From positions 1-64,000 of IMG/VR virus record IMGVR_UViG_3300048606_000186: a stretch of 64,000 nucleotides of DNA. One strand, 5' to 3'. This stretch comes from a virus. Its lineage: Duplodnaviria > Caudoviricetes. Numbering within the stretch: the stretch's first letter is position 1; each line of letters begins with the position of its first letter. Below the pieces are notes generated by a model that did not search any database, had not been told where the DNA came from, and worked only from the letters and a program-made list of their open reading frames with translations. This document shows positions 5,355 through 57,841 of this stretch, in pieces. The position numbers were made by a program, and so were the translations under genes.

Positions 5355-5596
5355 AGATCGAACACCGCCTTCGCGCGCATGGGCGTTGTCCCGTGGACGG
5401 AGCGCTAGACGCTTATCAAGTGATCGTGCGCTGCCACCGGGTCATCAAGGTCGAGGATATCCTGGCGGCTGTCGAATCCTTCACCACTGAACCGGTGTTG
5501 CAGGAGCAGTTCACTCGTCAGCTTGCGGCCCGACTGCGCGCGGAGGTGGAAACTATCGGGTTTCACTCGGGCGTCGAGACGCGGGTTGTCGCATGA
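5351..5596 (+). CDS. Minimal T-fold, QueF-like protein
   Basis: CPVDGALD (C13, D20), VE35 and QE52 have spacing like the QueF active-site residues; only 81 aa. Confidence 0.55.
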   Translation: MKIEHRLRAHGRCPVDGALDAYQVIVRCHRVIKVEDILAAVESFTTEPVLQEQFTRQLAARLRAEVETIGFHSGVETRVVA

Positions 5597-6318
5597 TCCA
5601 TTATCACGGCGGACCCATCACTCCAGACCCGTGCGCAATTCGCGCATGGCAGGCTGGGCACGCGTTCATCTCGTATGCCGACAGTCGTCAAATTGGCTTG
5701 GCCGCAGAGATTTGCCAGTCGTTTGCGCTGGATAACGGTGCCTACACCTTCTGGAAGACCAAGCGACCGGTAAACTGGCCCGGATACTATGCGTTCGTCA
5801 ATGAGTGGAGACGGCATCCCGGATTCGATTTCGCAGTCGTCCCGGATGTCATCGAGGGAAGCGAAGAAGAAAACGATGCGCTTGCGGACGCATGGCCATT
5901 TTCCCGGCACGAAGCTGGCGTTGTGTGGCATATCAACGAAAGCTTCGAAAGGCTGAAGCGCCTCGCTTTGGCATGGCCGCTAGTCTGCATTGGCTCCTGT
6001 GGAGAATATGATGTCGCTGTTCCGGCCCGTTATTTGCCGCGCGCTAGGGCGGCAATTCGGACCATTTGTGATCGCCGCAGTCGGCCAATATGCAAGCTGC
6101 ATGGGCTGCGAGTTCTCAACCCTGCGATATTCACCCAGTTGCCGTTAGCCAGCGGCGACAGCACCAATATCGCTCAGAACATCGGCGTCGACTCGTCCTG
6201 GAAGGGCACCTATCAGCCGCGAAGCAAGGAAACGCGCGCCGCCATTCTTCGTGAACGCATTGAATCAATCAATAGCATTGGGCACCTCCCGTCACCAGTT
6301 GAAGCTTTTCTGGCATGA
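5593..6318 (+). CDS. dpdA: DpdA-like (TGT-fold) DNA 7-deazaguanine transglycosylase
   Basis: TGT-like motifs LDNGAY, VPDVI, VWH, LHGL, SGDSTN; adjacent QueF-like gene. Confidence 0.7.
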   Translation: MIHYHGGPITPDPCAIRAWQAGHAFISYADSRQIGLAAEICQSFALDNGAYTFWKTKRPVNWPGYYAFVNEWRRHPGFDFAVVPDVIEGSEEENDALADAWPFSRHEAGVVWHINESFERLKRLALAWPLVCIGSCGEYDVAVPARYLPRARAAIRTICDRRSRPICKLHGLRVLNPAIFTQLPLASGDSTNIAQNIGVDSSWKGTYQPRSKETRAAILRERIESINSIGHLPSPVEAFLA

Positions 6319-38617: not shown

Positions 38618-40071
38618 CCGAGCAGCGCGGCTAGTGAGGCGGGTGCTGCCGCCGGCGGCGGGCCCAACAGCGCGCCGAGGTCCAGCGCCGGCGCGGCAAC
38701 TCCGAATCGCGCGCGAATATCGCCGGCGAACTCCGGCTCGGCTTCCATCAGGATGCAGTCGACGCCTTCCGCGCGCGCCGCGGCGCCGGTGGGCCCCGTG
38801 CCAGCGAACGGGTCCAGGACCGTGCCGCCTGGCGGCGTGACGAGGCGCACCAGCCAGGCGAGCATGTCGATCGGCTTGGCGGTCGGATGGCTGCGCAGTG
38901 ACACTTCGCCCGTCTCCGGGTCGATGCAGCCGCAGCCGGGTTTGGCGCCGACGCCGTGGTCGCCGCAGATCCTGCACTGGAATATCCGGTCGCGCGCCGT
39001 CGCCTTGGCGTTGTAGCGCACTGGCGCACCATCCAGTTCGGCGATCAGGCCGGCATCGAGCAGCGCGTCGAGCTCGTCCTCGCGCTGGAAGGCGTTGAAG
39101 AAGCGCGTCGAGCTCGTCCTCGCGCTGGAAGGCGTTGAAGAAGCGGGCCGCGCTGTCCGCTGCCGGGCGCGCGGGTGCATGACGTTGTCTGGCGAGCCGC
39201 GGCGCATTTCCCCGTAGCACGTTTGGTTTTTGCGCGAATTGGAGGAGGAGGAGGGCGCGATCTGGCCGGGCGCCGAGGGGAAGAGCGCCAGCACCTCGGG
39301 CGAGGCGTCGTGCAGGAAATTGGCCGGATGGCGGCCGAGTTGACTCGTCAATGTCACTTCATCGCCTGCGCGACCAAATGACGTCGCGATGGGGGCAGCG
39401 CGCAGTTTCGTGTCGCGCAAGTGAGGGTTGTCCGCGAGATTGCCGCCGTTGATCGTCTGATGCGCCACCCGGCACCCGTCGATGTTGATCGCGCCGGCGC
39501 CGTGCCGCAACAGGTTGAGCGCGCCATTCTTCTCGGCGAACGGCCGCTGGCCGACATAGATCGGCTCGAGCCCGGGCTTCATCGACTGGGTGCCGTATTT
39601 CCAGCCCTGCCAGAATTCGGCGACCTCGGCCCCCAGGCCGGCCTTCTCGATATATTTGGCGGCGTCATAGCCCTTCGGCATGCCCTGACCGTAGAGCCAG
39701 CCCAGGAACGGGTGCATCACGAAGCCGCCCATCTCCATCGCGCAGGCCATCCAGTGGCCGGTGCGCGGGGAGCCGAACGCGATGCAATAGCCGCCGGGCA
39801 ACAGGATGTCGTGGATCAGGCGCCAGAACTCAGGGTCGCGCTCGATGCCGGTCGCGTCCCATTTCGACCCCATGAAGCCGCCGCTCGCGCGCTGGAAGGC
39901 GCCATCGCTGCCGAACTTGGCCGGAGCGGCGCCCGCCTTGCCGAACCGCTTCGCCACGCTGACCAATCCGTAAGGCGCGTCCGTGACGACGCTGTTGACC
40001 CGGACACCCTGGTCGATCAGCCGGCGCAGGTGAGCCCGGTTGTCGCCTTCGTGGAGGATGATCGAGGTCAC
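38614..40071 (-). CDS. DNA amino-methyltransferase, beta class (DPPY-like, probably N6-adenine)
   Basis: VVTDAPY, 'MPKG', 'HPTAKP', VLDPFAGTG. Confidence 0.9.
   Translation of the reverse strand: MTSIILHEGDNRAHLRRLIDQGVRVNSVVTDAPYGLVSVAKRFGKAGAAPAKFGSDGAFQRASGGFMGSKWDATGIERDPEFWRLIHDILLPGGYCIAFGSPRTGHWMACAMEMGGFVMHPFLGWLYGQGMPKGYDAAKYIEKAGLGAEVAEFWQGWKYGTQSMKPGLEPIYVGQRPFAEKNGALNLLRHGAGAINIDGCRVAHQTINGGNLADNPHLRDTKLRAAPIATSFGRAGDEVTLTSQLGRHPANFLHDASPEVLALFPSAPGQIAPSSSSNSRKNQTCYGEMRRGSPDNVMHPRARQRTARPASSTPSSARTSSTRFFNAFQREDELDALLDAGLIAELDGAPVRYNAKATARDRIFQCRICGDHGVGAKPGCGCIDPETGEVSLRSHPTAKPIDMLAWLVRLVTPPGGTVLDPFAGTGPTGAAARAEGVDCILMEAEPEFAGDIRARFGVAAPALDLGALLGPPPAAAPASLAALLG
39062..39141. repeat. 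Perfect 40-bp tandem duplication inside the MTase
   Basis: AGCGCGTCGAGCTCGTCCTCGCGCTGGAAGGCGTTGAAGA x2. Confidence 0.95.
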
Positions 40072-41984: not shown

Positions 41985-42989
41985 TCAGCCGACCGCCGCG
42001 GCGCGCGCCCGGACGATCTCGACGAAGCCGTCGGTCAGCGCGGCCAGGTTTTCGAGGCTGCTGCTGTTCGGCAGCGTGTCCATCGGGACGTCGTCGAGCG
42101 CCCCTTCGCTGGCATGGCCACGGGGCGGCGCGTCGAAACCCGGCCGGATCTTGGCCGGCACGCCGCCGAGCTCGCAGACAAGGTCGAACTCGTTGGCAAA
42201 GCGCATGTCGTCGATCACGATGTCGCGGCCACCGCCGATGATTCGCCACGCGTCGATCTTAAGGCGCATGATCGCGATCCACAGGTCGGGCCTGACCAGT
42301 TCGCGGCCCCATTCGGTGCCGAGCGTCTGCTGGAGATAGCGCGACGTGAGACCGGTCCGGCCGAGCACCTGGTCGACGATCCATTTGTTGAGCGAGCAGA
42401 TGATGTAGCGCGGCGTCACGCCGAGCCCGTCGATCTCCTGGTTGGCCAGGTCGCCGTGGAGCATGCGATCGATCGTGCGCTCGTCGAATGCGAGGTCATT
42501 CAGCATCGCGCGGACCATGGCCTCGATCATGCGGGACACGACGCAAGGCGGCATGCGCATCGGGAGGCTGTCGGTCACGATTTCCTTGAGGTCGCCCTCC
42601 ACCATGCGCTCGATCATTTCGACCGGATAAGCGAGCGAGCGCAGCATCGCGCGGAGCATCTCCTTCAGCGTGCCGGCGAACTTCAGCGCCATGAAACCGT
42701 GGCGCTCGACCAGGCGACGGGCGACCTCGGATTTCCCCGAACCCATGGCCGGCGCACAGAGCGCGATCAGGATCGGGGGCGGAGGCGGAGGGGCGGGTTC
42801 CGCATAGGCGATGCGGCCGGCGGCAACGGGCCTGCGCTGATATAAGCCCCTGGCACCAGTCTCTCCGGATAGCTCGGTTCTCGCCAGACGATCGATCCGT
42901 GCGTCAATTTCATCGTCCGGCTGTGCGTAGTCCGTGGTTCGGGCTGCATCGCTGAAAACGACTGGGCAGATGGGCTCGTTCATGGCCAC
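41985..42989 (-). CDS. Deoxynucleoside monophosphate kinase (T4 gp1-like) with internal duplication
   Basis: P-loop GSGKS, 'KFAGTLKEM', 'QTLGTEWGR', 'IDDMRFANE', 'HASE'. Confidence 0.88.
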   Translation of the reverse strand: MAMNEPICPVVFSDAARTTDYAQPDDEIDARIDRLARTELSGETGARGLYQRRPVAAGRIAYAEPAPPPPPPILIALCAPAMGSGKSEVARRLVERHGFMALKFAGTLKEMLRAMLRSLAYPVEMIERMVEGDLKEIVTDSLPMRMPPCVVSRMIEAMVRAMLNDLAFDERTIDRMLHGDLANQEIDGLGVTPRYIICSLNKWIVDQVLGRTGLTSRYLQQTLGTEWGRELVRPDLWIAIMRLKIDAWRIIGGGRDIVIDDMRFANEFDLVCELGGVPAKIRPGFDAPPRGHASEGALDDVPMDTLPNSSSLENLAALTDGFVEIVRARAAAVG

Positions 42990-43332: not shown

Positions 43333-43905
43333 TCATATCGCCACCGCCTCGCCGGTCAGCTCGGTGAAGCGCGCGGCGAACATCCGGGTGGCCGACTCCG
43401 GCCCCCAGCAATGGATTTCGATGTCGGCGGGTTCGCCGGCGACGTTCCAATCGTGGGGGACCGGGTTCATCACCGCCTCGCGCTCGGTCAGCAGGATGGC
43501 GCGGTCGGCCGCCGTGACGCAGTCGGGCTGCATGATCGGCAGATTGAAGCGTGTCGCCACGGCCTGCCAGTTGAGGAATTCGATCTCGCGATAGCCGTGC
43601 AGTTTGTATTTGAACGGCCGCCGCACGTCACCGACATAGGCCTCGGCCGCGTCGTGCATCAGGCCAGCGAAGGCGTGTTCGGGCGGAACGATGTGGCTGA
43701 CGTGGACGCTATGCTCCGCGACCGAATAGAAACGCCGGCACATGCCGTTGTAGCGACAGATCTTGCCAAGCGCCTGGGCGATATCCTCAATGAACACGTC
43801 TTCGGGTCGCGGGTCGAATGGGAAATAGGGCCTTCCGGTCCAACTGTGGGTCCAGTTGCCGCGCGCCTCCTGGCCGGCGATGCGGTTGTCGTAGCCGCCG
43901 CTCAT
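43333..43905 (-). CDS. HD-domain deoxynucleotide phosphohydrolase
   Basis: 'IEDIAQALGKICRYNG...YSVAEHSV...LMHDAAEAYVGD'. Confidence 0.88.
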   Translation of the reverse strand: MSGGYDNRIAGQEARGNWTHSWTGRPYFPFDPRPEDVFIEDIAQALGKICRYNGMCRRFYSVAEHSVHVSHIVPPEHAFAGLMHDAAEAYVGDVRRPFKYKLHGYREIEFLNWQAVATRFNLPIMQPDCVTAADRAILLTEREAVMNPVPHDWNVAGEPADIEIHCWGPESATRMFAARFTELTGEAVAI

Positions 43906-44667: not shown

Positions 44668-44806
44668 GTCAGTACCGGCGGCGCGAGGCTCATATCCGAC
44701 GCGACGGCGACCTCGACGACGACCGGTGGCAGCGTTTTGGCCATGGCGAGCGAGGAGATGCCGGTCCGCAGGGCGGCTTTGTGGAAGCGAAGGCTGTAAT
44801 CGCGCT

Positions 44807-45109
44807 TCATGCCCGCAAGGCCTTGTTGCGCCAGGCCGGATCGTCGGAGCGGCTCGGCCGGGGGCGATAGAGCTTGCTGGACCGGGGACGCCCGAGCGTG
44901 GCCGCAACGTCGCGATAGCCTTGCTCTTCGGCCTGCACCGGAGTCAGTGCAGGGTTGCGCAGCATGGCCTTGAGAGGGGCCACCGACAGAGCCGCATTGA
45001 TTCGCTTGTTCGAGACGGGCGTAAAACCCGGCTCCCGCGCGAGTTGGCGGACGCGACGCGCCTTCATTTCGGCGCGATGGGCCGCGCTACGTGGATGGTT
45101 TCGGTTCAT
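44807..45109 (-). CDS. Basic hypothetical protein
   Basis: RBS GGGGAG; operator at 45120-36 directly upstream. Confidence 0.55.
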   Translation of the reverse strand: MNRNHPRSAAHRAEMKARRVRQLAREPGFTPVSNKRINAALSVAPLKAMLRNPALTPVQAEEQGYRDVAATLGRPRSSKLYRPRPSRSDDPAWRNKALRA

Positions 45110-45138
45110 TATCTCCCCTTCCCACTAAAACATGAAAC

Positions 45139-45516
45139 TCAGATCGTCGGAACGACGCGCGGCACCTGCTGCACCTGGCCCTGCGAAGCCTCATGTTCCC
45201 GCGCCAGAGCGACCAGGGTCGCGGCGCCGAGGTTGAAGATCAGGCATACTTCGGCGAGCCGCCGCGCTTCGGGCGGCGTCAAATGCGCGGCGCCGGCGAA
45301 GCGGGCGAGGAATGTCTCGTCGCCGTGGTTCAGCCGCGCGCGCAAGGCGGCGGCGCAAATATCGATCGGCGTCTCGAGCAGTGTGCGCGGATCCTGATCC
45401 TGCGCGTAATCGGGCAGCGCGATACCGGTCGCGGACGGCGCTGTGTCGGGCGCCGTGGCGAACGAAGGAGCGGCCAGTGAGACCATGGCTGCAAGGATCA
45501 GGGTTCTTTTGCTCAT
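45139..45516 (-). CDS. Exported hypothetical protein
   Basis: Signal peptide MSKRTLILAAMVSLAAPSFA; promoter/operator at 45545-72. Confidence 0.6.
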   Translation of the reverse strand: MSKRTLILAAMVSLAAPSFATAPDTAPSATGIALPDYAQDQDPRTLLETPIDICAAALRARLNHGDETFLARFAGAAHLTPPEARRLAEVCLIFNLGAATLVALAREHEASQGQVQQVPRVVPTI

Positions 45517-45593
45517 TGCCGACTCCCTCGTTCGAAATTGCGTTATCCAGTAAAACATGAAATAGAGTCAAGCGAAAACGTCAGGCCGGCGCA

Positions 45594-46628
45594 TCATGCG
45601 ATCAACAACCAGGCGAGGCACCGATTGCGGGCGATCTCGACCGAGAAATCAGTCGGAGGTCTAACGGTGATGTTTTCGTTCAAACCCCAGCGCGGCGGGA
45701 AGAATGGTGTCGGCATCGGTGCGGAGAGCGGGCGGTATGTCTGCTTGATTTTGCTGCGGCCGGCCCTGCCTACGATATCGGGGTGTGAAGCGCGTGAATA
45801 TTTGCTGATCTCGCAGAACAGACCTTGGCAGTCGTTGAGTTGCAGCGGTCTGCCGAAAAGGCCCGGAAAATCGAGACCGAGTCGGTCGAATTCCGCATCC
45901 TGCCGGGACCACATTTCACGAATTACATCCTCGGCCGTGGCACCGCCTGTGTCGCTGAAACACTTTGAAATTCCATCCAGGGCGCCCGGTCCGGCGACGA
46001 CAAACTCGGATTCCCCAAACGCAAGCAGGCTGGAATAATTGAGGTCTAGCGCATATTGGAAGGCGAGGAAGCTTCCGAGGCCGGCATAAACATGGAGCAT
46101 CTCATAAACCTGGCTGAGTGAGGTCGCTCCAGCGATTCGACAGGGCAGACCATCGGAAAGCATCCGGCTCAACAACAACAAGTGATTTTCATGTTTTCGC
46201 GCCGCACCGAACGGTGGCGATGACATGATATATGCCGCCGAATAGATGGTTTCCCGCCTGGCCATCGCGCCAGAAAGAATCAACGCGGCGCGCTCAAGAG
46301 TTGCCTGCGTTGCCACAATAGGGCCGAGATCGGCTTCGAGCAGTTGCCAGGTCTCGATCTTATTGAAAATCTTGAACAGGAGCGTTCGGAAGAACAATTC
46401 ATCAGGCGCTTGAGAACGACCCTCGCCATATTGAACTTCGCGGATCAAATACTGGCTGATCCTGTCGGCAGCCCTGTAGGTATTGCAAAACCGCCAGTGC
46501 TGAATGATTGGGTCGTCCGTCCATGGCCCAATAGGATCAACGAGATGGCGGTAATATGCGGCCAAGCGCTCCGCCGCGAACCGCCAATAGCTGTCATAGA
46601 CGGCCGTTGGTTCAAGGTTCGCCATCAA
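45594..46628 (-). CDS. aGPT-Pplase1 / 5-hmdU DNA kinase helical-domain family protein (base hypermodification)
   Basis: 'RFCNTYRAADRISQYLIR', 'YSAAYI', 'FLAFQYALDLNY', 'GPGALDGI', 'DCQGLFCEISKY'. Confidence 0.82.
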   Translation of the reverse strand: MMANLEPTAVYDSYWRFAAERLAAYYRHLVDPIGPWTDDPIIQHWRFCNTYRAADRISQYLIREVQYGEGRSQAPDELFFRTLLFKIFNKIETWQLLEADLGPIVATQATLERAALILSGAMARRETIYSAAYIMSSPPFGAARKHENHLLLLSRMLSDGLPCRIAGATSLSQVYEMLHVYAGLGSFLAFQYALDLNYSSLLAFGESEFVVAGPGALDGISKCFSDTGGATAEDVIREMWSRQDAEFDRLGLDFPGLFGRPLQLNDCQGLFCEISKYSRASHPDIVGRAGRSKIKQTYRPLSAPMPTPFFPPRWGLNENITVRPPTDFSVEIARNRCLAWLLIA

Positions 46629-47245
46629 TAGGATTCCAGCAACGGGATGCAGCGCAGAACCTTGTCCCCCGGTGTGGCGTTCGGATCGCGCAGAACAGCC
46701 AGGGATTGGTCGATCAGGGCCTGCTTGCGGCCGGAGCCGCGGGGGCTCGGCACCGGAGCCCCCGAATAGTAAGCGGCGATCGCCTCGCGCAGCCAGGCCT
46801 GGTGATCTTCATCGCCGTGCCGCAAGGATTGGAATAGCGCTTCCGCTTCATCACCGTTGTTTGCCGTTACCGGATCCCTGGACAGACCTGACGACTCTTT
46901 GAAGGCCTGCTTGTCACGGATCCGGCGCTTCAGGTCGGGCGTATCGATGCGACGAAACTCATCATATGCAGCTGTACTAAGATCGACTTCGAGCACACCG
47001 CACAGAGCGGCGAGCGTCACCATGACACCGCCCACCTCGTTAGGAACAGATCCGATCGGTCGGGCGAACACATAATCCACCACGCGACGAGCCTCGCACT
47101 TCGTCATGCCCACAGCCTGGGCCAATTCGATCGCTTCTTCGGTAAAGCGAAAGCCTCTCAGCACCGGTGTCGTTAGATCGCATGCGCCCTCGAAGACCTC
47201 GCGCATCCAGCGCATCACGTACCACTGGAAGACTTGAATTCTCAT
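46625..47245 (-). CDS. MazG-like NTP pyrophosphohydrolase with C-terminal extension
   Basis: 'RFTEEAIELAQA...YVFARP.G...EVGGVMVTLAAL'. Confidence 0.7.
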   Translation of the reverse strand: MRIQVFQWYVMRWMREVFEGACDLTTPVLRGFRFTEEAIELAQAVGMTKCEARRVVDYVFARPIGSVPNEVGGVMVTLAALCGVLEVDLSTAAYDEFRRIDTPDLKRRIRDKQAFKESSGLSRDPVTANNGDEAEALFQSLRHGDEDHQAWLREAIAAYYSGAPVPSPRGSGRKQALIDQSLAVLRDPNATPGDKVLRCIPLLESY

Positions 47246-47670
47246 ACGACGTGCTCGGCACGCTTAGGCTCTTCCACGGTTTCACATTGCAGGCGATCGA
47301 GCAGCGCAACTCTCCCCGTTCCCATGTCGACTTGGTAAAGCTGCGGATGCGGCGCCCGCCAGTCCCCATAGATATGCTCAAGCGCGCGTTCGACACGGAC
47401 CTCGAGACAGCGACTGGAGAACGGGCCAGCCTTGCCGGTGCCGATCCATTCGGCGAGATCTTCGCCCCAGGCGAGGTGCGGCGGCAACATCTTGTGGTCG
47501 ATCGTCTTCAGGGCCAGCGCGAGCTCGTCGCGCAGCACCTCGGCATCGTGCGGCTCGAACCAGGCGATGACTTGCCAGGTGTGGCCGTGAAGGTTGCCCT
47601 GCGGCCGGCCCGTCTCGCCCCTGGGATAGTGGGCGGCACAAAATACGCCGCTGACTCCGGTGCGCTTCAT
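47242..47670 (-). CDS. QueD/PTPS-like T-fold protein lacking the canonical Cys
   Basis: 'FCAAH...NLHGHTWQV...IDH'; GN replaces the CxxxHGH Cys region. Confidence 0.72.
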   Translation of the reverse strand: MKRTGVSGVFCAAHYPRGETGRPQGNLHGHTWQVIAWFEPHDAEVLRDELALALKTIDHKMLPPHLAWGEDLAEWIGTGKAGPFSSRCLEVRVERALEHIYGDWRAPHPQLYQVDMGTGRVALLDRLQCETVEEPKRAEHVV

Positions 47671-48101
47671 TTCCCCGGCCTCCACGCCGACAGCGACTGG
47701 TAATACCAGTGGTGAAGGAACCCGAGCGGCGCATGGCCGCCCATCATGCGCAGCCATAGCGCGCGGCCCGATCGTCCGTTGCCGTCGGTGAACGGGTGCA
47801 GGTCTTCATAGGCATGGTGAACCTCATATGGATCCGTGCCGTCGAGGATGTTGAACAGCCGGTCGCGGATTTCCGGACATCCGGGCGGTGGAACGTGATC
47901 GCCGACGTAAACATTCAGGCCGACTCGATCACGCAGCAAGGCGTCCGGTTGGACCACCGAGACGAAGCATTGCAACGACGCGATGCTGAGATCGGCGGTC
48001 AGGAACGTGGCATGCGCCTCGATTTCGGCAGCTGTCGCGGGCCGCATGATGCCTTCGATGCGGTTGCTCTCTTCCACGAAGAGGCGGAGGGTTGAGTTCA
48101 T
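47667..48101 (-). CDS. Stand-alone Fic-domain protein
   Basis: Intact HPFTDGNGRSGR motif; 'ESNRIEG'. Confidence 0.9.
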   Translation of the reverse strand: MNSTLRLFVEESNRIEGIMRPATAAEIEAHATFLTADLSIASLQCFVSVVQPDALLRDRVGLNVYVGDHVPPPGCPEIRDRLFNILDGTDPYEVHHAYEDLHPFTDGNGRSGRALWLRMMGGHAPLGFLHHWYYQSLSAWRPGK

Positions 48102-48925
48102 CCGATCATCTCCTGAAGCAATCGCGGCGCGCCCCAGCGACCGCCACCGAGCGACGTGAAGTGGCGTTGCAGCGTCTGGCGAATCTTCGGCCGCCAGTGC
48201 GGCGAGCAGCGCCGTTCCGGCACGATCGCCTCGTAAATGTCCTGAACCGGTGCCGCGCCGCCGAGCTCTCGCAGAGCGATCGACACCGCCTCGCGCCATG
48301 TTCCCGGGCGCGACAGTGCATCGCGCAGCTCGTCGCGCATCCCGTCGACGTCGCGCTTCTCGGCGAACAGCATAAGGCCGGCGACATAGCGGCGACCCGT
48401 CTTGGTGAACTTGGCCCAGGTCAGCGGCTTCGAAAGGCCTGGAAACAGGGTGCGCGGGATCAGATTCACGTCGATTGCGAACCGCTCCATGTAGCGGGCA
48501 ACGCGGCTCGGGGTCTGGAAGGTGTAGGCCGGCAGGATCATCGCGACCAGGCCGTCTTCCGGCAGCAGAACGTGGGCACGATCGAGCAGGGCATCAAGCA
48601 GCGCCATGTCGAACGGCGGGTTGCCGAGCAGCAGTTCTATCTTCCGCCCGGTCAAGTCCACGGTGAGGAAGTCGCCTTCGATAACGTCGCGGCCACTGGT
48701 TGCGCGCGCCACCGCGGCGGCCTTGGGATCGATATCGACGCCGAACGCGGGACAGGCGGCCGGGATAGCAGCGAGAAAGGCACCGGTGCCGCAGAAGGGT
48801 TCGGCGACATGCACCCTGCCGAGCCCGGCGAGCGCGTCCGCAACCAGTTCCTCGGCGGCCCAGAAGGGCGTGAACACCTGGTCGAGCGTAAGGTCGCCGG
48901 TACGGCTATGGGCGTCGATCGTCAC
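48098..48925 (-). CDS. DNA N6-adenine methyltransferase (gamma order) with C-terminal wHTH
   Basis: 'QVFTP', EPFCGTG, GNPPF; tail 'WREAVSIALRELGG....DIY...KIRQTLQ'. Confidence 0.88.
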   Translation of the reverse strand: MTIDAHSRTGDLTLDQVFTPFWAAEELVADALAGLGRVHVAEPFCGTGAFLAAIPAACPAFGVDIDPKAAAVARATSGRDVIEGDFLTVDLTGRKIELLLGNPPFDMALLDALLDRAHVLLPEDGLVAMILPAYTFQTPSRVARYMERFAIDVNLIPRTLFPGLSKPLTWAKFTKTGRRYVAGLMLFAEKRDVDGMRDELRDALSRPGTWREAVSIALRELGGAAPVQDIYEAIVPERRCSPHWRPKIRQTLQRHFTSLGGGRWGAPRLLQEMIG

Positions 48926-49545
48926 GCGGCACCCGGCGGCCGGTCGTGGGTGGCGTCGTAGTCGGGGTCGATCCAGCCATATTCCTCGGCCGCCGCCTGG
49001 AGCGCCGCCGGCACGGCGAGGCCCGCGGCCTGCATCAGGTGCCACAGATCGAACGAGCAGATCACGACGCAGCCGAGCGTCTCAGCGGTGTAGGCGACGG
49101 TTTCGGCGGTGCTGGCGGGAATCGGGTGGCGGGCGACGGCGCGACTGGGGACGCCGGCGACGATCAGCCGCGCATCCTCTTCGCACATGAGACGGGCGAA
49201 CTGACGCCGGGCGCCGGTTACCCGATCCTCTGCGTCAACGGCCCATTCGGCATCGACCGCCCAGGCCTTCAGGGATCCGTCGTCGAGCTTGAAGGCGTGG
49301 TAGGTTTCGACGGTGCTGTCGGCGGCCGCCCGCGCCCCGTCCTGAACTGGGCTGGCGAGGGCGCGGATGGAGGCTGCAATCTCTCGGCGGCAAATACTTG
49401 TTGGTGCCTCGCCGCGCATATATGCTTCCGACGCAGACGCGCAGGCCACCCATGCTTCGGCAATCTGGGCGCACCGCTCGATTAGCGCCCTCTCCCCCAA
49501 GCCCGCTGTCGGCTGGGCGGGGGTGGACTTGTCCTGCTCGGTCAT
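48922..49545 (-). CDS. Hypothetical protein
   Basis: Coupled by 4-bp overlaps on both sides. Confidence 0.55.
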   Translation of the reverse strand: MTEQDKSTPAQPTAGLGERALIERCAQIAEAWVACASASEAYMRGEAPTSICRREIAASIRALASPVQDGARAAADSTVETYHAFKLDDGSLKAWAVDAEWAVDAEDRVTGARRQFARLMCEEDARLIVAGVPSRAVARHPIPASTAETVAYTAETLGCVVICSFDLWHLMQAAGLAVPAALQAAAEEYGWIDPDYDATHDRPPGAA

Positions 49546-49853
49546 TCCGAAAATCCTCCGTCCTGTCGCATGGTCTGCCCGTTCACGCCGGTCAGCGATC
49601 CCGCGTAGGTGGAGTATGGCGCTTTCTTCATCTGCCCTCGATAACTGGCCGATACGATCACATCGGGGCCAGCCTCCCCAAGCGCCTTGTTGAACGCCTT
49701 CCGAACCCACGCTCGGACAACCCCAGTCTTCATCACCGACTGCTGATCGAAGCGGCGCTCAGCTATCACTTTCCCCCGGCCACCCACGATTTCGGCCTCG
49801 ACCCGGCACTGAAAATCGATCGTGCCCCTTTCCTCCGTCGCCTCGCGCGGCAT
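49542..49853 (-). CDS. Hypothetical protein
   Basis: ORF at the head of the modification operon; start uncertain. Confidence 0.45.
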   Translation of the reverse strand: MPREATEERGTIDFQCRVEAEIVGGRGKVIAERRFDQQSVMKTGVVRAWVRKAFNKALGEAGPDVIVSASYRGQMKKAPYSTYAGSLTGVNGQTMRQDGGFSE

Positions 49854-50021
49854 GATCAAAACCTCTCGCGCGGCTGCCGGACGCGGAAGCAAAACAGCCC
49901 GGCGATCACGGCGCAGTCGATTCGTTCCAGCGCCGCTGCTCTTCTCAATTTCCCTGACCATGGCGGCGTTCCCGAATCATGTTGCAGTCGATTCGTTGTC
50001 TACGCCCGCACCCGCCGTATC

Positions 50022-50038
50022 GTCAAGTAAAACCTGAA
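50022..50038. promoter_or_regulatory. Operator overlapping a leftward -35 (TTGACG)
   Basis: GTCAAGT-AAA-ACCTGAA. Confidence 0.55.
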
Positions 50039-50198
50039 ACACAGTTTTCGATTGACATTTCCCCGAAGCCTCGGCAGAGTTCGAGTCCCCCGAATGCGAC
50101 GCGGCTTCCCCCTGTGCCGCGTCCGCGCGCTGGCCCCGCCGTATTCCTCCTCTGGTGCGGCGGGGCCTTTGCGTTTCAGCGGTGCGCTTGGGGCAGAC

Positions 50199-50594
50199 CT
50201 AGCGGGCGAGCGTGGCCTCGAAGCGGGGCGACAGGTCCAGATCGCGCTCCCAGGCGATGCTCTCACCGCTGCAGAAGCTCGCGGCGGAACCGATGCCGCG
50301 GTTGCCGACCAGGACCATCACGCGGCCGTTCACCATCGCTCCTGCGAACACGACCCATCCTGGCTCGCCGCGGGGATCGTCCATGTCGACTTGGCCGCAG
50401 ACCGCCCGCGCCGTGCCGCCCCCTCGAGCGGGCATGCCGATCAGATAGACGCGGCGGAAGCGCGCCGCCGCCGGCTCCGGCAGGACGCGTCCGAGTTGTG
50501 CGATCGTCCCGTCGATTAGCGGCGTGTCGACAGCCGGCGGCGCCGGTGCCTGCGCGGCAAGCAATGCGGCGGCGATCGTCGAGATCATGTTCAT
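50199..50594 (-). CDS. Exported/periplasmic hypothetical protein
   Basis: Signal peptide 'ISTIAAALLAAQA', 'VCGQV' Cys pair; RBS GGAG. Confidence 0.6.
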   Translation of the reverse strand: MNMISTIAAALLAAQAPAPPAVDTPLIDGTIAQLGRVLPEPAAARFRRVYLIGMPARGGGTARAVCGQVDMDDPRGEPGWVVFAGAMVNGRVMVLVGNRGIGSAASFCSGESIAWERDLDLSPRFEATLAR

Positions 50595-55336: not shown

Positions 55337-57841
55337 TCAAATGGCCAGTTTCGTCGCCAATATGTCGGAGCCGTCGCGATAATAGGCGCGCTGTCGCCCG
55401 TAAGGATTGTCGAATGTCGCGCGTTCGCCGTCGGTGAACCAACCGGGCACCCGCAGCATGGCTCGACCGAGCGTCTGGGCCTTGATTTGATCGTAGCCGT
55501 TCGCATGCCCGCCGAGGCCTTCGCAGAAGATCTGCATGAGGCAGGTGACGTCGCGAAGGCGAGGCTCGCCACCGGCGTCCTTGTCGTCGAAACCGCCGTC
55601 GCGCATGGGCTTGTCGAGCCAGGCGGCGATGCGGCCGGCGACCCCGTCGTCCGCGCTCTCGACGCGGCGTGATTCCTGCAGCCGTGCGGCGATCTTCGCG
55701 GCGGCCGGGTCCGTCAGGAACAAGGGAAGCGTCCCGTAGGGCTGCGCGGCGCGCATGGCTCGATAGCTCACCAGCGCCTCGGCCCACAACTGGTCGACCT
55801 CGCCTTCGAGCCGCGCGGTGTCGATTTCCTTCACTGTGCAGAGGACCGGCCAGAAGCGACGGCCGCCGGTGTCGTCCTTGAGGTACTCGTGATCGTTGGT
55901 CGAGCCGATGAAGATGCACTGCCGCGGGAAGGCGGCGGCCCGGCGTGCGTAGGCCAGGCGAGCGTGGTCGATCTCGCGGCTGATGAAGGCCTTGATGGCG
56001 CGGACGTCGGAGCGATTGAAGCCGGTCAGCTCCGGGATTTCGAGCACCCAGCCGCCCTGCATCAGCTCGATCATTTGCTTGGCATCGTGGAAGTCGCCGT
56101 CCAGCTCCTTGAACCAGTGCCGGCCGAGGATCTTGATGAAGGTCGATTTTCGCTTGCCCTGGATGCCCTCGAGGATCGTGGCGAAATCGAACTTGTGCCC
56201 GGGCTCGAAGACACGAGTCACGGCCGCGGTCATGACCAGCCTCGCGACGCTGCGGTGATAGGCGTTGTCGGCCGCGCCTACGTAGTCGATGAACAGCCGA
56301 TCGATGCGCGGCGTGCCGTCCCACACCAGCGATTCGAGATATTCCCGGATCGGGTGAAACGGGAAATCGTTCGCCGACAGCACGATCGCCGCGCGCAGGT
56401 CGCGATCGGTCAGCTTGACGCCGTAGCCGCCCTGGGTCTTCGGCGCCTCGAAGATCGCCCGCACGGCGAAGTCGCGATCGTCGGACCACAGCTCGCCGTT
56501 CAGCGTGTCGCGGACGTCCCAGATGCGGCCTTCGAGCTGCAGCGTCGGCTTGGCCTCGTTGCGCCGGCGCGGGGGCTTGCGGCCAGGCGCGGTGCGCTGG
56601 ACGGTCTCCTGTGTGAACTCGTTGATCTGCGGAATGCCTACCAGCCGGCTGTCGTTGCGGACGATCAAGGCGATATTGTGCAGGGTCGGCCGGATGGCGC
56701 CCTCTTCATTGAAGTCGAGGAGCCAACGCCAGTCGTCGGCGGTCGGCTCGGCCGCGGCGGTGTCAAAGGAAGCTAGCGGATCCGAGTCGGTTTCGCCGAG
56801 CAGGTCCGCCAGGCTGCGCGGGGCATCGGGTTCGTCATCGTCGCCGGCGAACGCCCGGATGGTGTCGGGTTTCTCCGGCAGATCATCGAACTCGGACACC
56901 ATCCGGGCGGTGCGGGCGTCGATCGCCCACTGGCGGACCGTGCCCATGGTGACGGGTCGCTTGCGGTTGCGGCCGAATCCGCGATATTTGCTGCGCATCG
57001 TGCGCAGATCGCCGTCGAATTTATCCGACCGCTTCGAATGCTCGACCCAGAGGTCGAAGCCCCGATCGTCGCCGCCGAACTGGTGATGCAGCGCCTGGCC
57101 GAGCTGCACCCAGTCGGCATATTCGTCGAGGCGCTCGATCGGCAGGTCGTCGAGATCGCGCTCCAGCTGCCCGGGCTCGAAGGTCAGCGGCTCGCGCAGC
57201 TCGAATTCGTAGGTCTCGCTGTCGGCGACCTCGGCTGCCTCGATCCAGGCGCTCGGGATGGTCGGGGCCACGCCCAGGGCGAGCATTGGGAGGTCGAACG
57301 GCCGCAGCCAGACGTAAGGGTTGCCGGTGTCCGGATGGATGCTCGGCGGCAGCGCGACCTGCTTGCCGGTGCCGAACAGTTCTATCTCCCAGTCGTAGTG
57401 CCACTTCCCGTCCGCGCCGCGGTGCTTGCCCTCGCTGTGCGCGATCACCTTCGATGAGAAGGCTTTGTCGGTGACGAAATAGAGGTGCCGCGACTCGCCG
57501 CCGGCGCCGGATATGACGCAGGGAAGCGTCTCAGGGTCGAGGTCGGGAAATATGGCAGCGAGCCGGTTCCACGCCTCGCCGGCGAGGTCCGCGATGCGAA
57601 TGTCGAGGTCCCAGGCGTGCAGGAATCCGCCAGATATGAGCGACGAGGGCGCCCCGGTGCGGACGCCGACGTTGTTGCCGGTCGCGTGGGTGCGGCGCAG
57701 CACGTCGAGCGTCGCCACCGGCACCTCGGACCAGCCCTCCCCGATCGGTCGCTTGGTCTTGGGATGCAGCCAGTGGAGCGCGAAGCCCGCCGCGCGCAAC
57801 GGGCCGATAGCGTCCAGAACCGATTGATCGTGATCGTGCAT
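55337..57841 (-). CDS. Primase-helicase: Prim-Pol + PriCT-2 + VirE/VapE P-loop
   Basis: 'GNNVGVRTG...DLDI', 'VALPPSIHPDTG', 'WVQLGQALH', Walker A EGIQGKRKST, 'DDTGGRRFWP'. Confidence 0.93.
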   Translation of the reverse strand: MHDHDQSVLDAIGPLRAAGFALHWLHPKTKRPIGEGWSEVPVATLDVLRRTHATGNNVGVRTGAPSSLISGGFLHAWDLDIRIADLAGEAWNRLAAIFPDLDPETLPCVISGAGGESRHLYFVTDKAFSSKVIAHSEGKHRGADGKWHYDWEIELFGTGKQVALPPSIHPDTGNPYVWLRPFDLPMLALGVAPTIPSAWIEAAEVADSETYEFELREPLTFEPGQLERDLDDLPIERLDEYADWVQLGQALHHQFGGDDRGFDLWVEHSKRSDKFDGDLRTMRSKYRGFGRNRKRPVTMGTVRQWAIDARTARMVSEFDDLPEKPDTIRAFAGDDDEPDAPRSLADLLGETDSDPLASFDTAAAEPTADDWRWLLDFNEEGAIRPTLHNIALIVRNDSRLVGIPQINEFTQETVQRTAPGRKPPRRRNEAKPTLQLEGRIWDVRDTLNGELWSDDRDFAVRAIFEAPKTQGGYGVKLTDRDLRAAIVLSANDFPFHPIREYLESLVWDGTPRIDRLFIDYVGAADNAYHRSVARLVMTAAVTRVFEPGHKFDFATILEGIQGKRKSTFIKILGRHWFKELDGDFHDAKQMIELMQGGWVLEIPELTGFNRSDVRAIKAFISREIDHARLAYARRAAAFPRQCIFIGSTNDHEYLKDDTGGRRFWPVLCTVKEIDTARLEGEVDQLWAEALVSYRAMRAAQPYGTLPLFLTDPAAAKIAARLQESRRVESADDGVAGRIAAWLDKPMRDGGFDDKDAGGEPRLRDVTCLMQIFCEGLGGHANGYDQIKAQTLGRAMLRVPGWFTDGERATFDNPYGRQRAYYRDGSDILATKLAI

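What the first reader, a model, noticed from the sequence alone, without database searches (positions are those of the whole stretch)
45594..48925. Coupled operon MTase-Fic-QueD-like-MazG-like-aGPT-Pplase1: orphan hypermodification enzyme with unusual partners
Seen: five genes, each overlapping the next by 4 bp. Known: aGPT-Pplase1 (HMUDK helical domain) proteins act in thymidine hypermodification, normally with a dUMP hydroxymethylase and a P-loop 5-hmdU kinase. Neither is recognisable in these 64 kb. Instead the gene sits with an intact Fic nucleotidyl/phospho-transferase, a T-fold QueD-like protein and an NTP pyrophosphohydrolase. Inference: this may be an undescribed base-modification pathway in which Fic supplies the activation step or the T-fold protein makes the donor. 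It could also be a set of independent anti-defence morons.
Basis: partly seen in the sequence, partly recalled or inferred. Interest (0 to 1): 0.85.

Follow-up and report, generated by a model that had tools for sequence, protein, structure and literature searches.

The report
Mosaic phage operon, not one pathway
A temperate phage strings five nucleotide-related genes into one tightly coupled operon, but their relatives elsewhere never travel together: the QueD-like gene belongs with the phage's distant DpdA guanine-swapping gene, and the aGPT-Pplase1 gene is a lone copy of a family whose chemistry is still unknown, so this is not a new DNA-modification pathway.

Summary
Five minus-strand genes (45594-48925) are translationally coupled. 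Their domain calls are right for HMUDK_hel, Fic and the QueD-like T-fold, and plausible for the MazG-like protein and the NPPF methyltransferase. The chain is really seven genes long, and such overlaps are routine in this phage.

The interpretation as one new pathway is not supported, because no pair of these genes co-occurs elsewhere.
- 0 of 24 T-fold-bearing viral genomes carry HMUDK_hel or the MazG-like family.
- 0 of 30 HMUDK_hel-bearing viral records carry Fic, and 1 of 30 carries the MazG-like family, not adjacent.
- The mini T-fold sits beside a DpdA gene in 20 of 24 such genomes. This phage has a DpdA 41 kb away.
- HMUDK_hel is clade 1, the M6 gp55 type, which was dispensable in reconstitution. 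Its nearest relatives (59-66% identity) lie in alphaproteobacterial Nmad2-HMUDK_hel-DCD-MazG_C-UDG islands, a predicted but unvalidated defence system.
- The complete 78.8-kb provirus has no hydroxymethylase, T-dioxygenase, 5-hmdU kinase or clade-2 transferase.

The scan had already noted QueD-DpdA pairs and orphan HMUDK_hel genes on other DNA. Interest is moderate.

The parts
49542..49853 (-). First gene of the coupled unit, 103 aa, no family match
   Evidence: Gene call on an identical Logan contig, with a 4-bp overlap onto the next gene. No NCBIfam, PADLOC or PHROG hit. An operator-like TTCAGGTTTTACTTGAC lies upstream at about 50022-50038.
48922..49545 (-). Second gene of the unit, 207 aa, no family match
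   Evidence: GTGA overlap with the MTase-like gene.
48098..48925 (-). Gamma-class amino-methyltransferase-like protein (FxGxG, then NPPF), most likely an orphan N6-adenine DNA MTase
   Evidence: Motifs seen in the translation. phrog_5172 E 1.7e-17 and phrog_799 'DNA methyltransferase' E 4.7e-11. PADLOC mad2 E 1e-14 and type II MTases. The Pfam hit is below the cut-off.
47667..48101 (-). Minimal 144-aa Fic protein with the canonical HPFTDGNGRSGR motif and an N-terminal S-x-x-x-E-G (SNRIEG) inhibitory-helix-like motif
   Evidence: Pfam Fic at 26.4 bits against a cut-off of 24. PADLOC SoFic and PDC-S04. Relatives at 53-67% identity occur in four viral contigs; in the two whose neighbours were scanned (L014, L015) they lie beside DUF6197, Sipho_Gp157 and Rad52 or unnamed genes, never beside the other four genes.
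47242..47670 (-). Mini T-fold, QueD/PTPS-like. The Zn-binding His14/His28/His30, Asp58-His59 and Glu70 are kept, but Gln replaces the QueD catalytic Cys. It is a member of a roughly 100-aa family that partners DpdA.
   Evidence: Pfam PTPS. Model pLDDT 89, with Foldseek hits to E. coli QueD and PTPS at E 1e-6. The family has 117 cluster representatives and the conserved columns are in A2. A DpdA homologue lies within about 0.4 kb in 20 of 24 viral genomes and in Caulobacter phage DMCA.
46625..47245 (-). MazG-like all-alpha NTP-pyrophosphohydrolase-like domain (residues 1-120) plus a shuffled C-terminal helical module
   Evidence: 1076 homologues, most covering only the N-terminal domain, a few named 'NTP pyrophosphatase' by JGI. 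Invariant EE..E and E70 columns. 4qgp at E 0.21. 3nl9 at Z 6.1, rmsd 3.5, 104 residues. No Pfam hit. GC 0.60 against 0.65 for the genome.
45594..46628 (-). Clade-1 aGPT-Pplase (HMUDK_hel, PF18723), intact and orphan
   Evidence: E 1.2e-96. All family-invariant residues are present, including Gly212-Pro-Gly214 and Cys271-Glu272. 24% identity to M6 gp55 at E 5e-15 and no similarity to M6 gp51. GC 0.56, GC3 0.64. An operator-like TTCATGTTTTACTGGAT follows at 45545-45561.
5593..6318 (+). DpdA-type DNA guanine transglycosylase, the likely functional partner of the T-fold gene, 41 kb away
   Evidence: 60% identity over 96% of its length to proteins of BTP1, SPN3UB and others annotated as queuine tRNA-ribosyltransferase. 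No QueC or FolE in the record.
43333..43905 (-). HD-domain deoxyribonucleoside 5'-monophosphate phosphatase, in the same leftward gene array
   Evidence: phrog_318 E 1.4e-59. Weak Pfam YfbR-like hit.
41985..42989 (-). P-loop dNMP-kinase-family protein, in the same leftward gene array
   Evidence: phrog_139 E 6.9e-34. tblastn hits to phage dNMP kinases. No BLAST similarity to the M6 gp54 5-hmdU DNA kinase.

Best explanation
The region is one repressor-controlled early transcription unit of a temperate, high-GC (probably alphaproteobacterial) tailed phage. Seven genes in it are translationally coupled. It is a mosaic of independently acquired modules, not a single pathway.

(1) The NPPF methyltransferase is one of four orphan DNA methyltransferases of this phage, and most likely methylates adenine to evade restriction. 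This is inferred.

(2) The minimal Fic is a stand-alone protein-modifying enzyme of a type found in other temperate-phage early regions. Its target is unknown.

(3) The QueD-like mini T-fold works with the phage's DpdA (5593-6318). The association is shown; the chemistry is inferred. DpdA swaps guanine in DNA for a 7-deazaguanine. The T-fold protein keeps the QueD zinc and substrate site but lacks the catalytic cysteine. It probably binds or tailors a host-made 7-deazaguanine or pterin precursor, since the phage has no FolE, QueE-type or QueC gene.

(4) The MazG-like protein is a common temperate-phage nucleotide pyrophosphohydrolase-like protein. With the nearby HD dNMP phosphatase and dNMP kinase it probably reshapes the nucleotide pool (inferred).

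(5) The HMUDK_hel gene is an intact clade-1 aGPT-Pplase. By sequence it belongs with the alphaproteobacterial chromosomal Nmad2-HMUDK_hel-DCD-MazG_C-UDG island genes, and its low GC marks it as a recent arrival. Its conserved Cys-Glu pair suggests chemistry at C6/C5 of a pyrimidine, but its substrate is unknown. Here it lacks every partner it has elsewhere.
For: No conserved partnership was found:
- The closest MazG-like relatives sit in early operons without HMUDK_hel, Fic or PTPS.
- The Fic relatives whose neighbours were scanned (L014, L015) sit by DUF6197, Sipho_Gp157 and Rad52, and 0 of 4 of the Fic relatives' records hold HMUDK_hel.
- Of 24 T-fold viral records, 0 hold HMUDK_hel and 0 hold the MazG-like family.
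- Of 30 HMUDK_hel viral records, 0 hold Fic, 1 holds the MazG-like family about 23 kb away, and 1 holds a PTPS.

The T-fold goes with DpdA:
- 20 of 24 records, and 14 of 17 that are at least 90% complete, hold a DpdA homologue.
- By the coordinates it lies within about 0.4 kb of the T-fold gene in all 20.
- The same query found DpdA in 0 of 30 HMUDK_hel records, which serves as a base-rate control.
- In cultured Caulobacter phage DMCA the T-fold gene directly abuts a DpdA-like gene.
- In the relative L071 (DpdA 69% identical) the order is terS, 84 aa, T-fold, 87 aa, DpdA, terL.

The HMUDK_hel clade:
- More than 6000 homologues were found. The best non-self hits are 59-66% identical and come from Sphingomonas, Phenylobacterium, Bradyrhizobium and Inquilinus chromosomes.
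- They lie in islands containing Nmad2, DCD, MazG_C, UDG and HTH-M78 genes.
- Cultured phages reach at most 38% identity.
- The similarity is to M6 gp55, not gp51.

Composition: GC3 is 0.64 for HMUDK_hel and 0.68 for the MazG-like gene, against 0.76-0.81 for the other three and 0.75-0.78 for the flanking genes. Most other genes picked by my scan have GC3 near 0.8-0.9.

Canonical parts are absent from the complete record: TS, Tet_JBP (92), HMUD2 (93), Nmad2 (94), a gp51-like protein (131), MazG_C (132) and DCD (133).
Against: - All five products have nucleotide or nucleic-acid-related folds and are co-translated, which is what a pathway would look like.
- The MazG-like and HMUDK_hel genes share a low GC, so they may have arrived together.
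- The closest viral HMUDK_hel (L106, 59% identity) lies in the order QueE-like, QueD, FolE, HMUDK_hel, MazG, DUF3310, ThyX. That is a second, analogous QueD/MazG/HMUDK_hel neighbourhood.
- Absence searches in fragmentary viral records, and with a Pfam Fic model that barely detects this mini-Fic, are weak negatives.
- The host chromosome was not available, so partners supplied in trans cannot be excluded.
- No function of any of the five proteins was tested.
Confidence: 0.6

Rival explanations
1. HMUDK_hel together with the MazG-like protein, and perhaps the downstream dNMP kinase and HD phosphatase, forms a reduced nucleotide-centred conflict module. It could be a counter-measure against the host's homologous Nmad2-HMUDK_hel-DCD-MazG_C-UDG system, acting as a captured component that competes or detoxifies. 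Alternatively it could be a phage-borne version of such a system aimed at competing phages.
For: - The nearest relatives sit in islands with MazG_C, DCD, UDG and Nmad2, once next to a type I restriction-modification system.
- DefensePredictor lists aGPT-Pplase, MazG, MazG-C, dUTPase, NMAD and UDG as a predicted system. It reports a validated E. coli system whose domains include thymidylate synthase, dNMP kinase, 5-hmdU kinase and NMAD (PMC13092281).
- This phage has HMUDK_hel, a MazG-like gene and a dNMP kinase within 4.6 kb.
- The two genes share a low GC.
- The phage protein has lost the Q-G-x-L-L/F-type C-terminal tail of the bacterial homologues.
Against: - The MazG-like family is unrelated by sequence to the MazG_C proteins, and it accompanies HMUDK_hel in only 1 of 30 viral records.
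- Nmad2, DCD, MazG_C and TS are all absent.
- The unit looks repressor-controlled and early, which does not fit a lysogen-expressed defence.
- All catalytic-looking residues are intact, which does not suggest a decoy.
- The bacterial island itself is unvalidated.
Confidence: 0.17
2. HMUDK_hel, the T-fold and the MazG-like protein cooperate in 7-deazapurine rather than thymidine chemistry. For example, the helix-hairpin-helix glycosylase-like HMUDK_hel might process or exchange a deazapurine in DNA alongside DpdA.
For: - L106, the closest viral homologue, places HMUDK_hel directly after QueE-like, QueD and FolE genes and before a MazG gene.
- The window phage carries DpdA, a DpdA-partner T-fold, a MazG-like gene and HMUDK_hel.
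- In phiST the QueD-like DpdL lies next to a MazG/dUTPase-like gene (bioRxiv 10.1101/2023.04.13.536721).
Against: - There are only two instances, and the QueD and MazG parts in L106 are analogous rather than orthologous. L106 has a full-length QueD, and its record has no match to the A1 MazG-like family.
- 0 of 24 T-fold/DpdA genomes have HMUDK_hel.
- 0 of 30 HMUDK_hel records have this DpdA type, and 1 of 30 has a PTPS.
- 20 of 30 HMUDK_hel records carry a thymidylate-synthase-family gene, which points to pyrimidine chemistry.
Confidence: 0.1
3. This is the first reader's pathway: a new thymidine hypermodification in which Fic phosphorylates or adenylylates a base hydroxyl in place of the P-loop 5-hmdU kinase, the T-fold protein makes the donor, and aGPT-Pplase1 transfers it.
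For: - The five genes are translationally coupled.
- The Fic motif is intact.
- HMUDK_hel is intact.
- The phage invests heavily in DNA modification, with four MTases and DpdA.
Against: - The complete record holds no source of 5-hmdU: no TS-family hydroxymethylase and no Tet/JBP dioxygenase.
- Transfer activity has been shown only for clade 2, and this protein is clade 1.
- Fic and HMUDK_hel never co-occur.
- The T-fold family tracks DpdA instead.
- From general knowledge rather than a test here, known Fic substrates are protein hydroxyls.
Confidence: 0.05

Closest known systems
Thymidine hypermodification clusters of phages M6, PaMx11, ViI, PhiW-14 and SP10 (Lee et al. 2018, PMC5889632; Lee et al. 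2021, PMC8989533)
   Same: They contain a PF18723 clade-1 aGPT-Pplase homologue. The window protein aligns to M6 gp55 at E 5e-15. The conserved Cys-Glu pair recalls the essential Cys/Glu of the clade-2 transferases.
   Different: The window has no dUMP hydroxymethylase, no 5-HMUDK P-loop kinase, no clade-2 amino-acid:DNA transferase, and no PLP, radical-SAM or FAD tailoring gene beside it. Family searches of the whole record were run only for the first three. Identity to phage members is only 24-38%. The clade-1 protein's own activity has never been shown. This is a temperate phage.
Alphaproteobacterial Nmad2-HMUDK_hel-DCD-MazG_C-UDG islands; the predicted aGPT-Pplase/MazG/MazG-C/dUTPase/NMAD/UDG system and the validated TS + dNMP kinase + 5-hmdU kinase + NMAD system of DefensePredictor (PMC13092281)
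   Same: The HMUDK_hel protein is 59-66% identical to the island proteins, far closer than to any phage protein. A MazG-type gene lies next to it and a dNMP kinase lies nearby.
   Different: Nmad2, DCD, MazG_C, UDG and TS are not detected in the record (UDG was not searched). The MazG-like gene belongs to a different family. The phage protein lacks the bacterial C-terminal Q-G-x-L-L/F tail. The gene sits in a phage early operon.
Phage DpdA 7-deazaguanine systems: 'DpdA-only' temperate phages (Hutinet et al. 2019, PMC6884629) and the QueD-like DpdL of phiST and ACP17 (Cui et al. 2023, PMC10516641)
   Same: The phage has a DpdA 60% identical to those of BTP1 and SPN3UB. Its QueD-like T-fold lacks the QueD cysteine, as DpdL does. 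The T-fold and DpdA are adjacent in 20 of 24 viral genomes.
   Different: The T-fold family consensus is G-x-L-H-G-H-T-W, not the L-x-x-x-H-R-H-x-F reported for DpdL. It is only about 100 aa long, and it occurs without FolE, QueE or QueD. In this phage the pair is split by 41 kb. It was not compared directly with a DpdL sequence.
Class II Fic proteins (SoFic type) and PADLOC candidate PDC-S04
   Same: It has the canonical HxFx(D/E)GNGRxxR motif and an N-terminal S-x-x-x-E-G motif.
   Different: At 144 aa it is much shorter than SoFic (361-position model), and only the motif region matches. The target and role are unknown.

Membership tests
Phage thymidine hypermodification pathway (5-hmdU to 5-PmdU to amino-acid adduct) | A source of 5-hmdU: a thymidylate-synthase-family dUMP hydroxymethylase or a Tet/JBP T-dioxygenase | tested here: not met
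   PF00303 is absent from the complete 78.8-kb record, while the control rings in 10 of 14 genomes. PF12851 is also absent, but its control rang nowhere, so that part is weaker.
Phage thymidine hypermodification pathway (5-hmdU to 5-PmdU to amino-acid adduct) | A P-loop 5-hmdU DNA kinase (5-HMUDK or HMUD2) | tested here: not met
   No PF18747 match. The only P-loop kinase found is of the dNMP-kinase family (phrog_139) and shows no BLAST similarity to M6 gp54. A remote relationship is not excluded.
Phage thymidine hypermodification pathway (5-hmdU to 5-PmdU to amino-acid adduct) | A clade-2 aGPT-Pplase (amino-acid:DNA transferase) | tested here: not met
   M6 gp51 finds nothing in the record. 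The window protein does not align to gp51 (best E 0.31). The search used a single sequence, so a distant member could be missed.
PF18723 HMUDK_hel (aGPT-Pplase clade 1) | A full-length domain match above the curated cut-off | tested here: met
   323.9 bits against a cut-off of 25, covering profile positions 1-280 of 281.
PF18723 HMUDK_hel (aGPT-Pplase clade 1) | Family-invariant residues, including G-P-G and the Cys-Glu pair | tested here: met
   All 22 invariant columns of A3 (bacterial, viral, LuckyBarnes and M6 gp55 sequences) are present, including G212-P213-G214 and C271-E272.
Bacterial Nmad2-HMUDK_hel-DCD-MazG_C-UDG island | Presence of the partner genes Nmad2, DCD and MazG_C | tested here: not met
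   PF18753, PF22769 and PF18722 are absent from the record. Only the DCD control rang. UDG was not searched.
QueD / 6-carboxytetrahydropterin synthase | A T-fold with the three zinc-binding histidines | tested here: met
   Foldseek hits to 4ntk and 3qn0 at E 1e-6, probability 1.0, TM 0.6-0.7. His14, His28 and His30 are conserved in the family.
QueD / 6-carboxytetrahydropterin synthase | The catalytic cysteine of the CxxxHGH motif | tested here: not met
   The sequence reads Q-G-N-L-H-G-H, and the position is variable and never a conserved Cys across the 36-sequence alignment. The requirement for this Cys is taken from Cui et al..
DpdA-associated mini T-fold | A DpdA gene in the same genome | tested here: met
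   DpdA at 5593-6318. The family co-occurs with DpdA in 20 of 24 viral records.
DpdA-associated mini T-fold | Adjacency to DpdA | tested here: not met
   The two genes are 41 kb apart here. They are adjacent in all 20 co-occurring viral records and in phage DMCA.
MazG / all-alpha NTP pyrophosphohydrolase superfamily | A four-helix all-alpha fold with the EExxE...ExxD metal-binding motifs | tested here: inconclusive
   No Pfam hit. The EE..E motif is invariant, but the second motif reads E-V-G-G with no Asp. 4qgp at E 0.21. Foldseek found nothing. VIA-align's top hit is 3nl9 at Z 6.1, rmsd 3.5, 104 residues, which is modest for a helical bundle.
Fic/Doc | The HxFx(D/E)GNGRxxR active-site motif | tested here: met
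   HPFTDGNGRSGR at residues 96-107. The Pfam Fic hit is above the cut-off.
Gamma-class N6-adenine DNA methyltransferase | SAM motif I (FxGxG) preceding catalytic motif IV (NPPF/Y) | tested here: met
   F-C-G-T-G at residues 43-47, then N-P-P-F at residues 102-105. PADLOC and PHROG MTase hits. Target base and substrate were not tested.

The most novel reading that the evidence does not exclude
The QueD-like T-fold, the MazG-like protein and the clade-1 aGPT-Pplase form a functional trio that links 7-deazapurine metabolism to the HMUDK_hel family. This is hinted at by the second neighbourhood, QueE-QueD-FolE-HMUDK_hel-MazG in L106. HMUDK_hel would then act on a purine or deazapurine in DNA, or on a new pyrimidine substrate without any 5-hmdU precursor.
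Probability: 0.08. Interest if true: 0.8.

Novelty: new variant of a known kind. Interest (0 to 1): 0.4.

Why it matters
If the operon were a Fic-driven hypermodification pathway it would be a new chemistry. The evidence says it is not, which removes a false lead. Two things are left that deserve modest attention.

First, a roughly 100-aa cysteine-less QueD-like protein is a near-constant neighbour of DpdA in phages that make no preQ0 themselves. I found it described in neither of the two library papers that mention both DpdA and T-fold. It may explain what 'DpdA-only' phages actually insert.

Second, an intact clade-1 aGPT-Pplase sits in a complete temperate phage that lacks a hydroxymethylase, a kinase and a transferase. 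It is a clean natural test case for what this large family does on its own. The family has more than 6000 homologues and is now implicated in bacterial defence.

Tried and rejected
- MazG-like protein against the MazG_C proteins of the bacterial islands. BLASTP and hhalign showed no significant similarity.
- MazG-like protein against the gene after the T-fold in L021 and in phage DMCA. A weak E 0.002 hit to DMCA_034c was spurious, because that protein turned out to be DpdA-like.
- PDB sequence searches with the single MazG-like and T-fold proteins found nothing.
- Foldseek on the MazG-like model found nothing at E <= 0.001.
- Single-sequence scans of viral contigs for the T-fold and the MTase found no relatives. 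The 36-sequence T-fold alignment was too diverse to scan with, so a 7-sequence alignment was used instead.
- The word-index search for the T-fold found only one relative. The full HMMER scan was needed.
- Relatives of a virus record cannot be drawn by the genome search. The host chromosome could therefore not be examined for a hydroxymethylase or an HMUDK_hel island.
- The script machine was lost, so no trees, codon statistics or batch tblastn could be run.
- I considered the dNMP-kinase-family gene as a hidden 5-HMUDK and rejected it. It has no similarity to M6 gp54 and clear dNMP-kinase family membership.
- The sigma-70 promoter scan of 44800-50400 found no site. The palindromic operator pattern matched only 3 sites at one mismatch or fewer, none of them flanking this unit. 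The two flanking sites I cite are looser matches read directly from the sequence.

Full report
WHAT IS THERE. The window is the first 64 kb of a 78,843-bp IMG/VR provirus record that CheckV rates 100% complete. Its GC content is about 65%. The finding's five ORFs lie on the minus strand exactly as described:
- an MTase-like gene at 48098-48925;
- a 144-aa Fic at 47667-48101;
- a 142-aa QueD/PTPS-like protein at 47242-47670;
- a 206-aa MazG-like protein at 46625-47245;
- a 343/344-aa HMUDK_hel protein at 45594-46628.

Three junctions read ATGA. The last reads TTGATG, which gives a 4-bp overlap from a TTG start or 1 bp from the ATG start. Gene calls on an independent Logan contig that encodes the identical HMUDK_hel protein agree with these lengths. 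They also show two more coupled genes upstream, of 103 and 207 aa. The unit is therefore seven genes long. It lies between two intergenic regions that carry similar operator-like 17-mers, at about 50022-50038 and 45545-45561. Four-base overlaps are routine elsewhere in this genome, so coupling alone says little about shared function.

DOMAIN IDENTITIES. HMUDK_hel is unambiguous: PF18723 at E 1.2e-96, full length. It keeps all 22 invariant columns of an alignment that spans bacterial, viral and cultured-phage members, including G-P-G and a Cys271-Glu272 pair.

The Fic protein has a canonical HPFTDGNGRSGR motif and an N-terminal SNRIEG motif.

The T-fold assignment is confirmed structurally. The model has pLDDT 89 and matches E. 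coli QueD and PTPS at Foldseek E 1e-6, probability 1.0. However, the QueD catalytic cysteine is replaced: the motif reads QGNLHGH.

The MazG-like call rests on weak evidence:
- no Pfam hit;
- a profile hit to the MazG-like pyrophosphatase 4qgp at E 0.21;
- a top but modest VIA-align match to the putative NTP pyrophosphohydrolase 3nl9 (Z 6.1, rmsd 3.5, 104 residues);
- nothing from Foldseek.

The MTase-like protein has FxGxG followed by NPPF, with PHROG and PADLOC methyltransferase hits.

DO THE GENES BELONG TOGETHER? I tested each gene's relatives for the other four.

MazG-like: about 1000 homologues share only the roughly 115-aa N-terminal domain. The two closest lie in temperate-phage early operons that have no HMUDK_hel, Fic or PTPS gene.

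Fic: four viral relatives at 53-67% identity. The neighbours of two (L014, L015) were scanned and are DUF6197, Sipho_Gp157 and Rad52 or unnamed genes. None of the four records holds HMUDK_hel.

T-fold: a full HMMER scan found a family of about 100-aa proteins with 117 cluster representatives. The zinc histidines, Asp-His, Glu and Arg are conserved, and no cysteine is conserved. I took 24 viral records of at least 30 kb that carry it. Of these:
- 0 hold HMUDK_hel;
- 0 hold the MazG-like family;
- 20 hold a DpdA homologue, as do 14 of the 17 that are at least 90% complete.

By the coordinates, the DpdA gene lies within about 0.4 kb of the T-fold gene in all 20, usually directly downstream. The same DpdA query found nothing in 30 HMUDK_hel-bearing viral records, which serves as a base-rate control. 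In the cultured Caulobacter phage DMCA the only T-fold hit among 50,697 phage records abuts a 'hypothetical protein' that is DpdA-like at E 3.8e-32. In a relative of this prophage (L071, DpdA 69% identical) the order is terS, 84 aa, T-fold, 87 aa, DpdA, terL.

The window phage itself has a DpdA at 5593-6318. It is 60% identical to the BTP1 and SPN3UB proteins annotated as queuine tRNA-ribosyltransferase. It is preceded there by a nucleoside-deoxyribosyltransferase-like gene and an 81-aa ORF. The record has no QueC or FolE. The T-fold gene is therefore best read as the displaced partner of DpdA, not as a donor-maker for HMUDK_hel.

WHAT KIND OF HMUDK_hel IS THIS? The family is huge: 6265 proteins at E <= 1e-10 among the 8000 candidates scored. 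The best non-self hits are 59-66% identical and come from Sphingomonas, Allosphingosinicella, Phenylobacterium, Inquilinus and Bradyrhizobium, on chromosome-sized contigs. Their neighbourhoods are conserved:
- HTH/M78 peptidase, Nmad2, HMUDK_hel, DCD, MazG_C and UDG, next to a type I restriction-modification system in Sphingomonas sp. LY54;
- an HTH gene, an M78 peptidase and a C1 peptidase upstream, then HMUDK_hel, DCD and MazG_C in Phenylobacterium;
- MazG-MazG_C beside HMUDK_hel in Bradyrhizobium.

This matches the predicted but unvalidated system that DefensePredictor highlights: aGPT-Pplase, HTH, NMAD, UDG, MazG, MazG-C and dUTPase. The same paper reports a validated E. coli system whose domains include thymidylate synthase, dNMP kinase, 5-hmdU kinase and NMAD (PMC13092281).

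Cultured phages reach only 38% identity. The best is Brevibacterium phage LuckyBarnes, where the gene follows a thymidylate synthase and two glycosyltransferases. Against Pseudomonas phage M6 the protein aligns to gp55 (24% identity, E 5e-15). It does not align to gp51, the glycine:DNA transferase.

In Lee et al. 2021 the M6 reaction needed only gp54 (the kinase) and gp51. It still worked when gp52, gp53 and gp55 were left out (PMC8989533). The family this gene belongs to has therefore never been shown to do anything. The Pfam name reflects its fusion to the kinase in SP10 gp186 (PMC5889632).

Among 30 viral records with HMUDK_hel:
- 20 carry a thymidylate-synthase-family gene, including 8 of the 9 that are at least 90% complete;
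- 0 carry Fic;
- 1 carries the MazG-like family, about 23 kb from HMUDK_hel;
- 1 carries a PTPS.

L004 shows the canonical arrangement: HMUD2 kinase, HMUDK_hel, TS-like and HD genes. The window record has no TS, Tet_JBP, HMUD2, Nmad2, gp51-like, MazG_C or DCD gene. A hydroxymethylase-less HMUDK_hel in a complete phage genome is thus unusual. Besides this one I saw only G029 (L002/L110).

A COMPLICATION WORTH KEEPING. The closest viral homologue (L106, 59% identity, on a contig rated 41% complete) lies in the order QueE-like radical SAM, QueD, FolE, HMUDK_hel, MazG, DUF3310, ThyX, methyltransferase. That is a second case of HMUDK_hel between a QueD-type and a MazG-type gene.

The parts are analogous rather than orthologous. 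L106 has a full-length QueD, its record has no match to the A1 MazG-like family, and no DpdA of this type was found in it. With only two instances, this may simply reflect clustering of nucleotide and DNA-modification genes in phage early regions. I keep it as a 10% rival and as the basis of the novel case.

COMPOSITION AND CONTEXT. HMUDK_hel (GC 0.56, GC3 0.64) and the MazG-like gene (GC 0.60, GC3 0.68) are compositional outliers. The other three genes have GC3 0.76-0.81, the flanking genes 0.75-0.78, and most other genes picked in this genome about 0.8-0.9. This fits later acquisition, possibly of the two together.

The same leftward gene array also encodes:
- an HD dNMP phosphatase at 43333-43905 (phrog_318, E 1.4e-59);
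- a dNMP-kinase-family P-loop protein at 41985-42989 (phrog_139, E 6.9e-34);
- an N6/N4 MTase at 38614-40071;
- upstream, a primase/VapE helicase at 55337-57841.

The kinase shows no similarity to the M6 5-hmdU DNA kinase.

VERDICT. The single-pathway interpretation is not supported. The best reading, at confidence 0.6, is a mosaic early operon:
- an orphan adenine MTase;
- a stand-alone mini-Fic;
- the DpdA partner T-fold, displaced from its usual position;
- a common phage MazG-like protein;
- an orphan, intact clade-1 aGPT-Pplase of the bacterial-island lineage, whose chemistry is unknown but is probably Cys-dependent attack on a pyrimidine.

What is shown: gene structure, family membership, and the co-occurrence and non-co-occurrence statistics. 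What is inferred: every biochemical role. The host chromosome could not be examined, and absence in fragmentary viral contigs is weak evidence.

The finding deserves moderate rather than high interest. Its most useful by-products are the near-obligate mini-T-fold/DpdA pairing and a natural 'HMUDK_hel alone' test case.

Noticed in passing
Alignment A3; window 45594-45680 for the phage protein's C-terminus: Bacterial HMUDK_hel homologues end in Q-G-x-L-L/F, Q-L-S-L-L or Q-M-S-F-I at the extreme C-terminus. This resembles the beta-sliding-clamp-binding motif (QL[SD]LF type, recalled from memory) and would tether them to replicating DNA. The phage protein lacks it and ends in ...CLAWLLIA.
   Followed up: partly
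L106:297-5000 (IMGVR_UViG_3300014325_000037): The closest viral HMUDK_hel (59% identity) is embedded in the order QueE-like radical SAM, QueD, FolE, HMUDK_hel, MazG, DUF3310, ThyX, methyltransferase, GIY-YIG. It sits directly between a 7-deazaguanine-precursor gene set and a flavin-dependent thymidylate synthase.
   Followed up: partly
L071:3691-5294, and 20 viral records: A roughly 100-aa cysteine-less QueD-like T-fold gene sits immediately next to DpdA in 20 of 24 viral genomes. In the relative L071 the pair lies between terS and terL, the slot where this prophage instead has an NDT-like gene, an 81-aa ORF and DpdA.
   Followed up: yes
L018:5297-6022 (Caulobacter phage DMCA, DMCA_034c): This gene is annotated 'hypothetical protein' but is a DpdA homologue (E 3.8e-32, 41% identity). 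It lies directly downstream of the gene annotated 6-carboxytetrahydropterin synthase.
   Followed up: yes
window 46625-46860 (C-terminal 75 residues of the MazG-like protein); P0127, P0128 in A1: A small helical module (H-G-D-E-x-H-x-A-W-L ... G-x-P-V-P-x-P-R-G) is C-terminal in this protein and in P0127 but N-terminal in P0128, so it is a shuffled add-on of unknown role.
   Followed up: no
G000 67348-78843 (beyond the window): One open frame of at least 3831 aa with GC3 0.85 runs to the very end of the provirus record. It was not examined.
   Followed up: no
window 45139-45516: The gene after HMUDK_hel (125 aa from its second ATG) begins MSKRTLILAAMVSLAAPSFA, which looks like a signal peptide, so it is a likely secreted or envelope protein. 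It starts a new unit after the operator-like site at 45545-45561.
   Followed up: no
window 45545-45561 and 50022-50038: Similar 17-mers (TTCATGTTTTACTGGAT and TTCAGGTTTTACTTGAC) flank the seven-gene unit. They are loose versions of the palindromic operator that another note reports across the genome. With one mismatch or fewer the strict pattern matches only 29031, 32985 and 41543.
   Followed up: partly
L020:13686-14249 (Pseudomonas phage M6 gp54) and phrog_800: RefSeq annotates the experimentally shown 5-hmdU DNA kinase of M6 as 'terminase small subunit'. The window's HMUDK_hel also gives a weak hit to phrog_800, which carries that same label, so the label in this gene neighbourhood looks like a propagated mis-annotation.
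   Followed up: no
PMC5889632 Table 3 versus PMC8989533 Table 1: The 2018 paper lists M6 gp51 as PPlase1 and gp55 as PPlase2. The 2021 paper, following Pfam, calls gp51 aGPT-Pplase2. Clade labels for M6 are swapped between the two papers, which can mislead readers about which clade has proven activity.
   Followed up: partly
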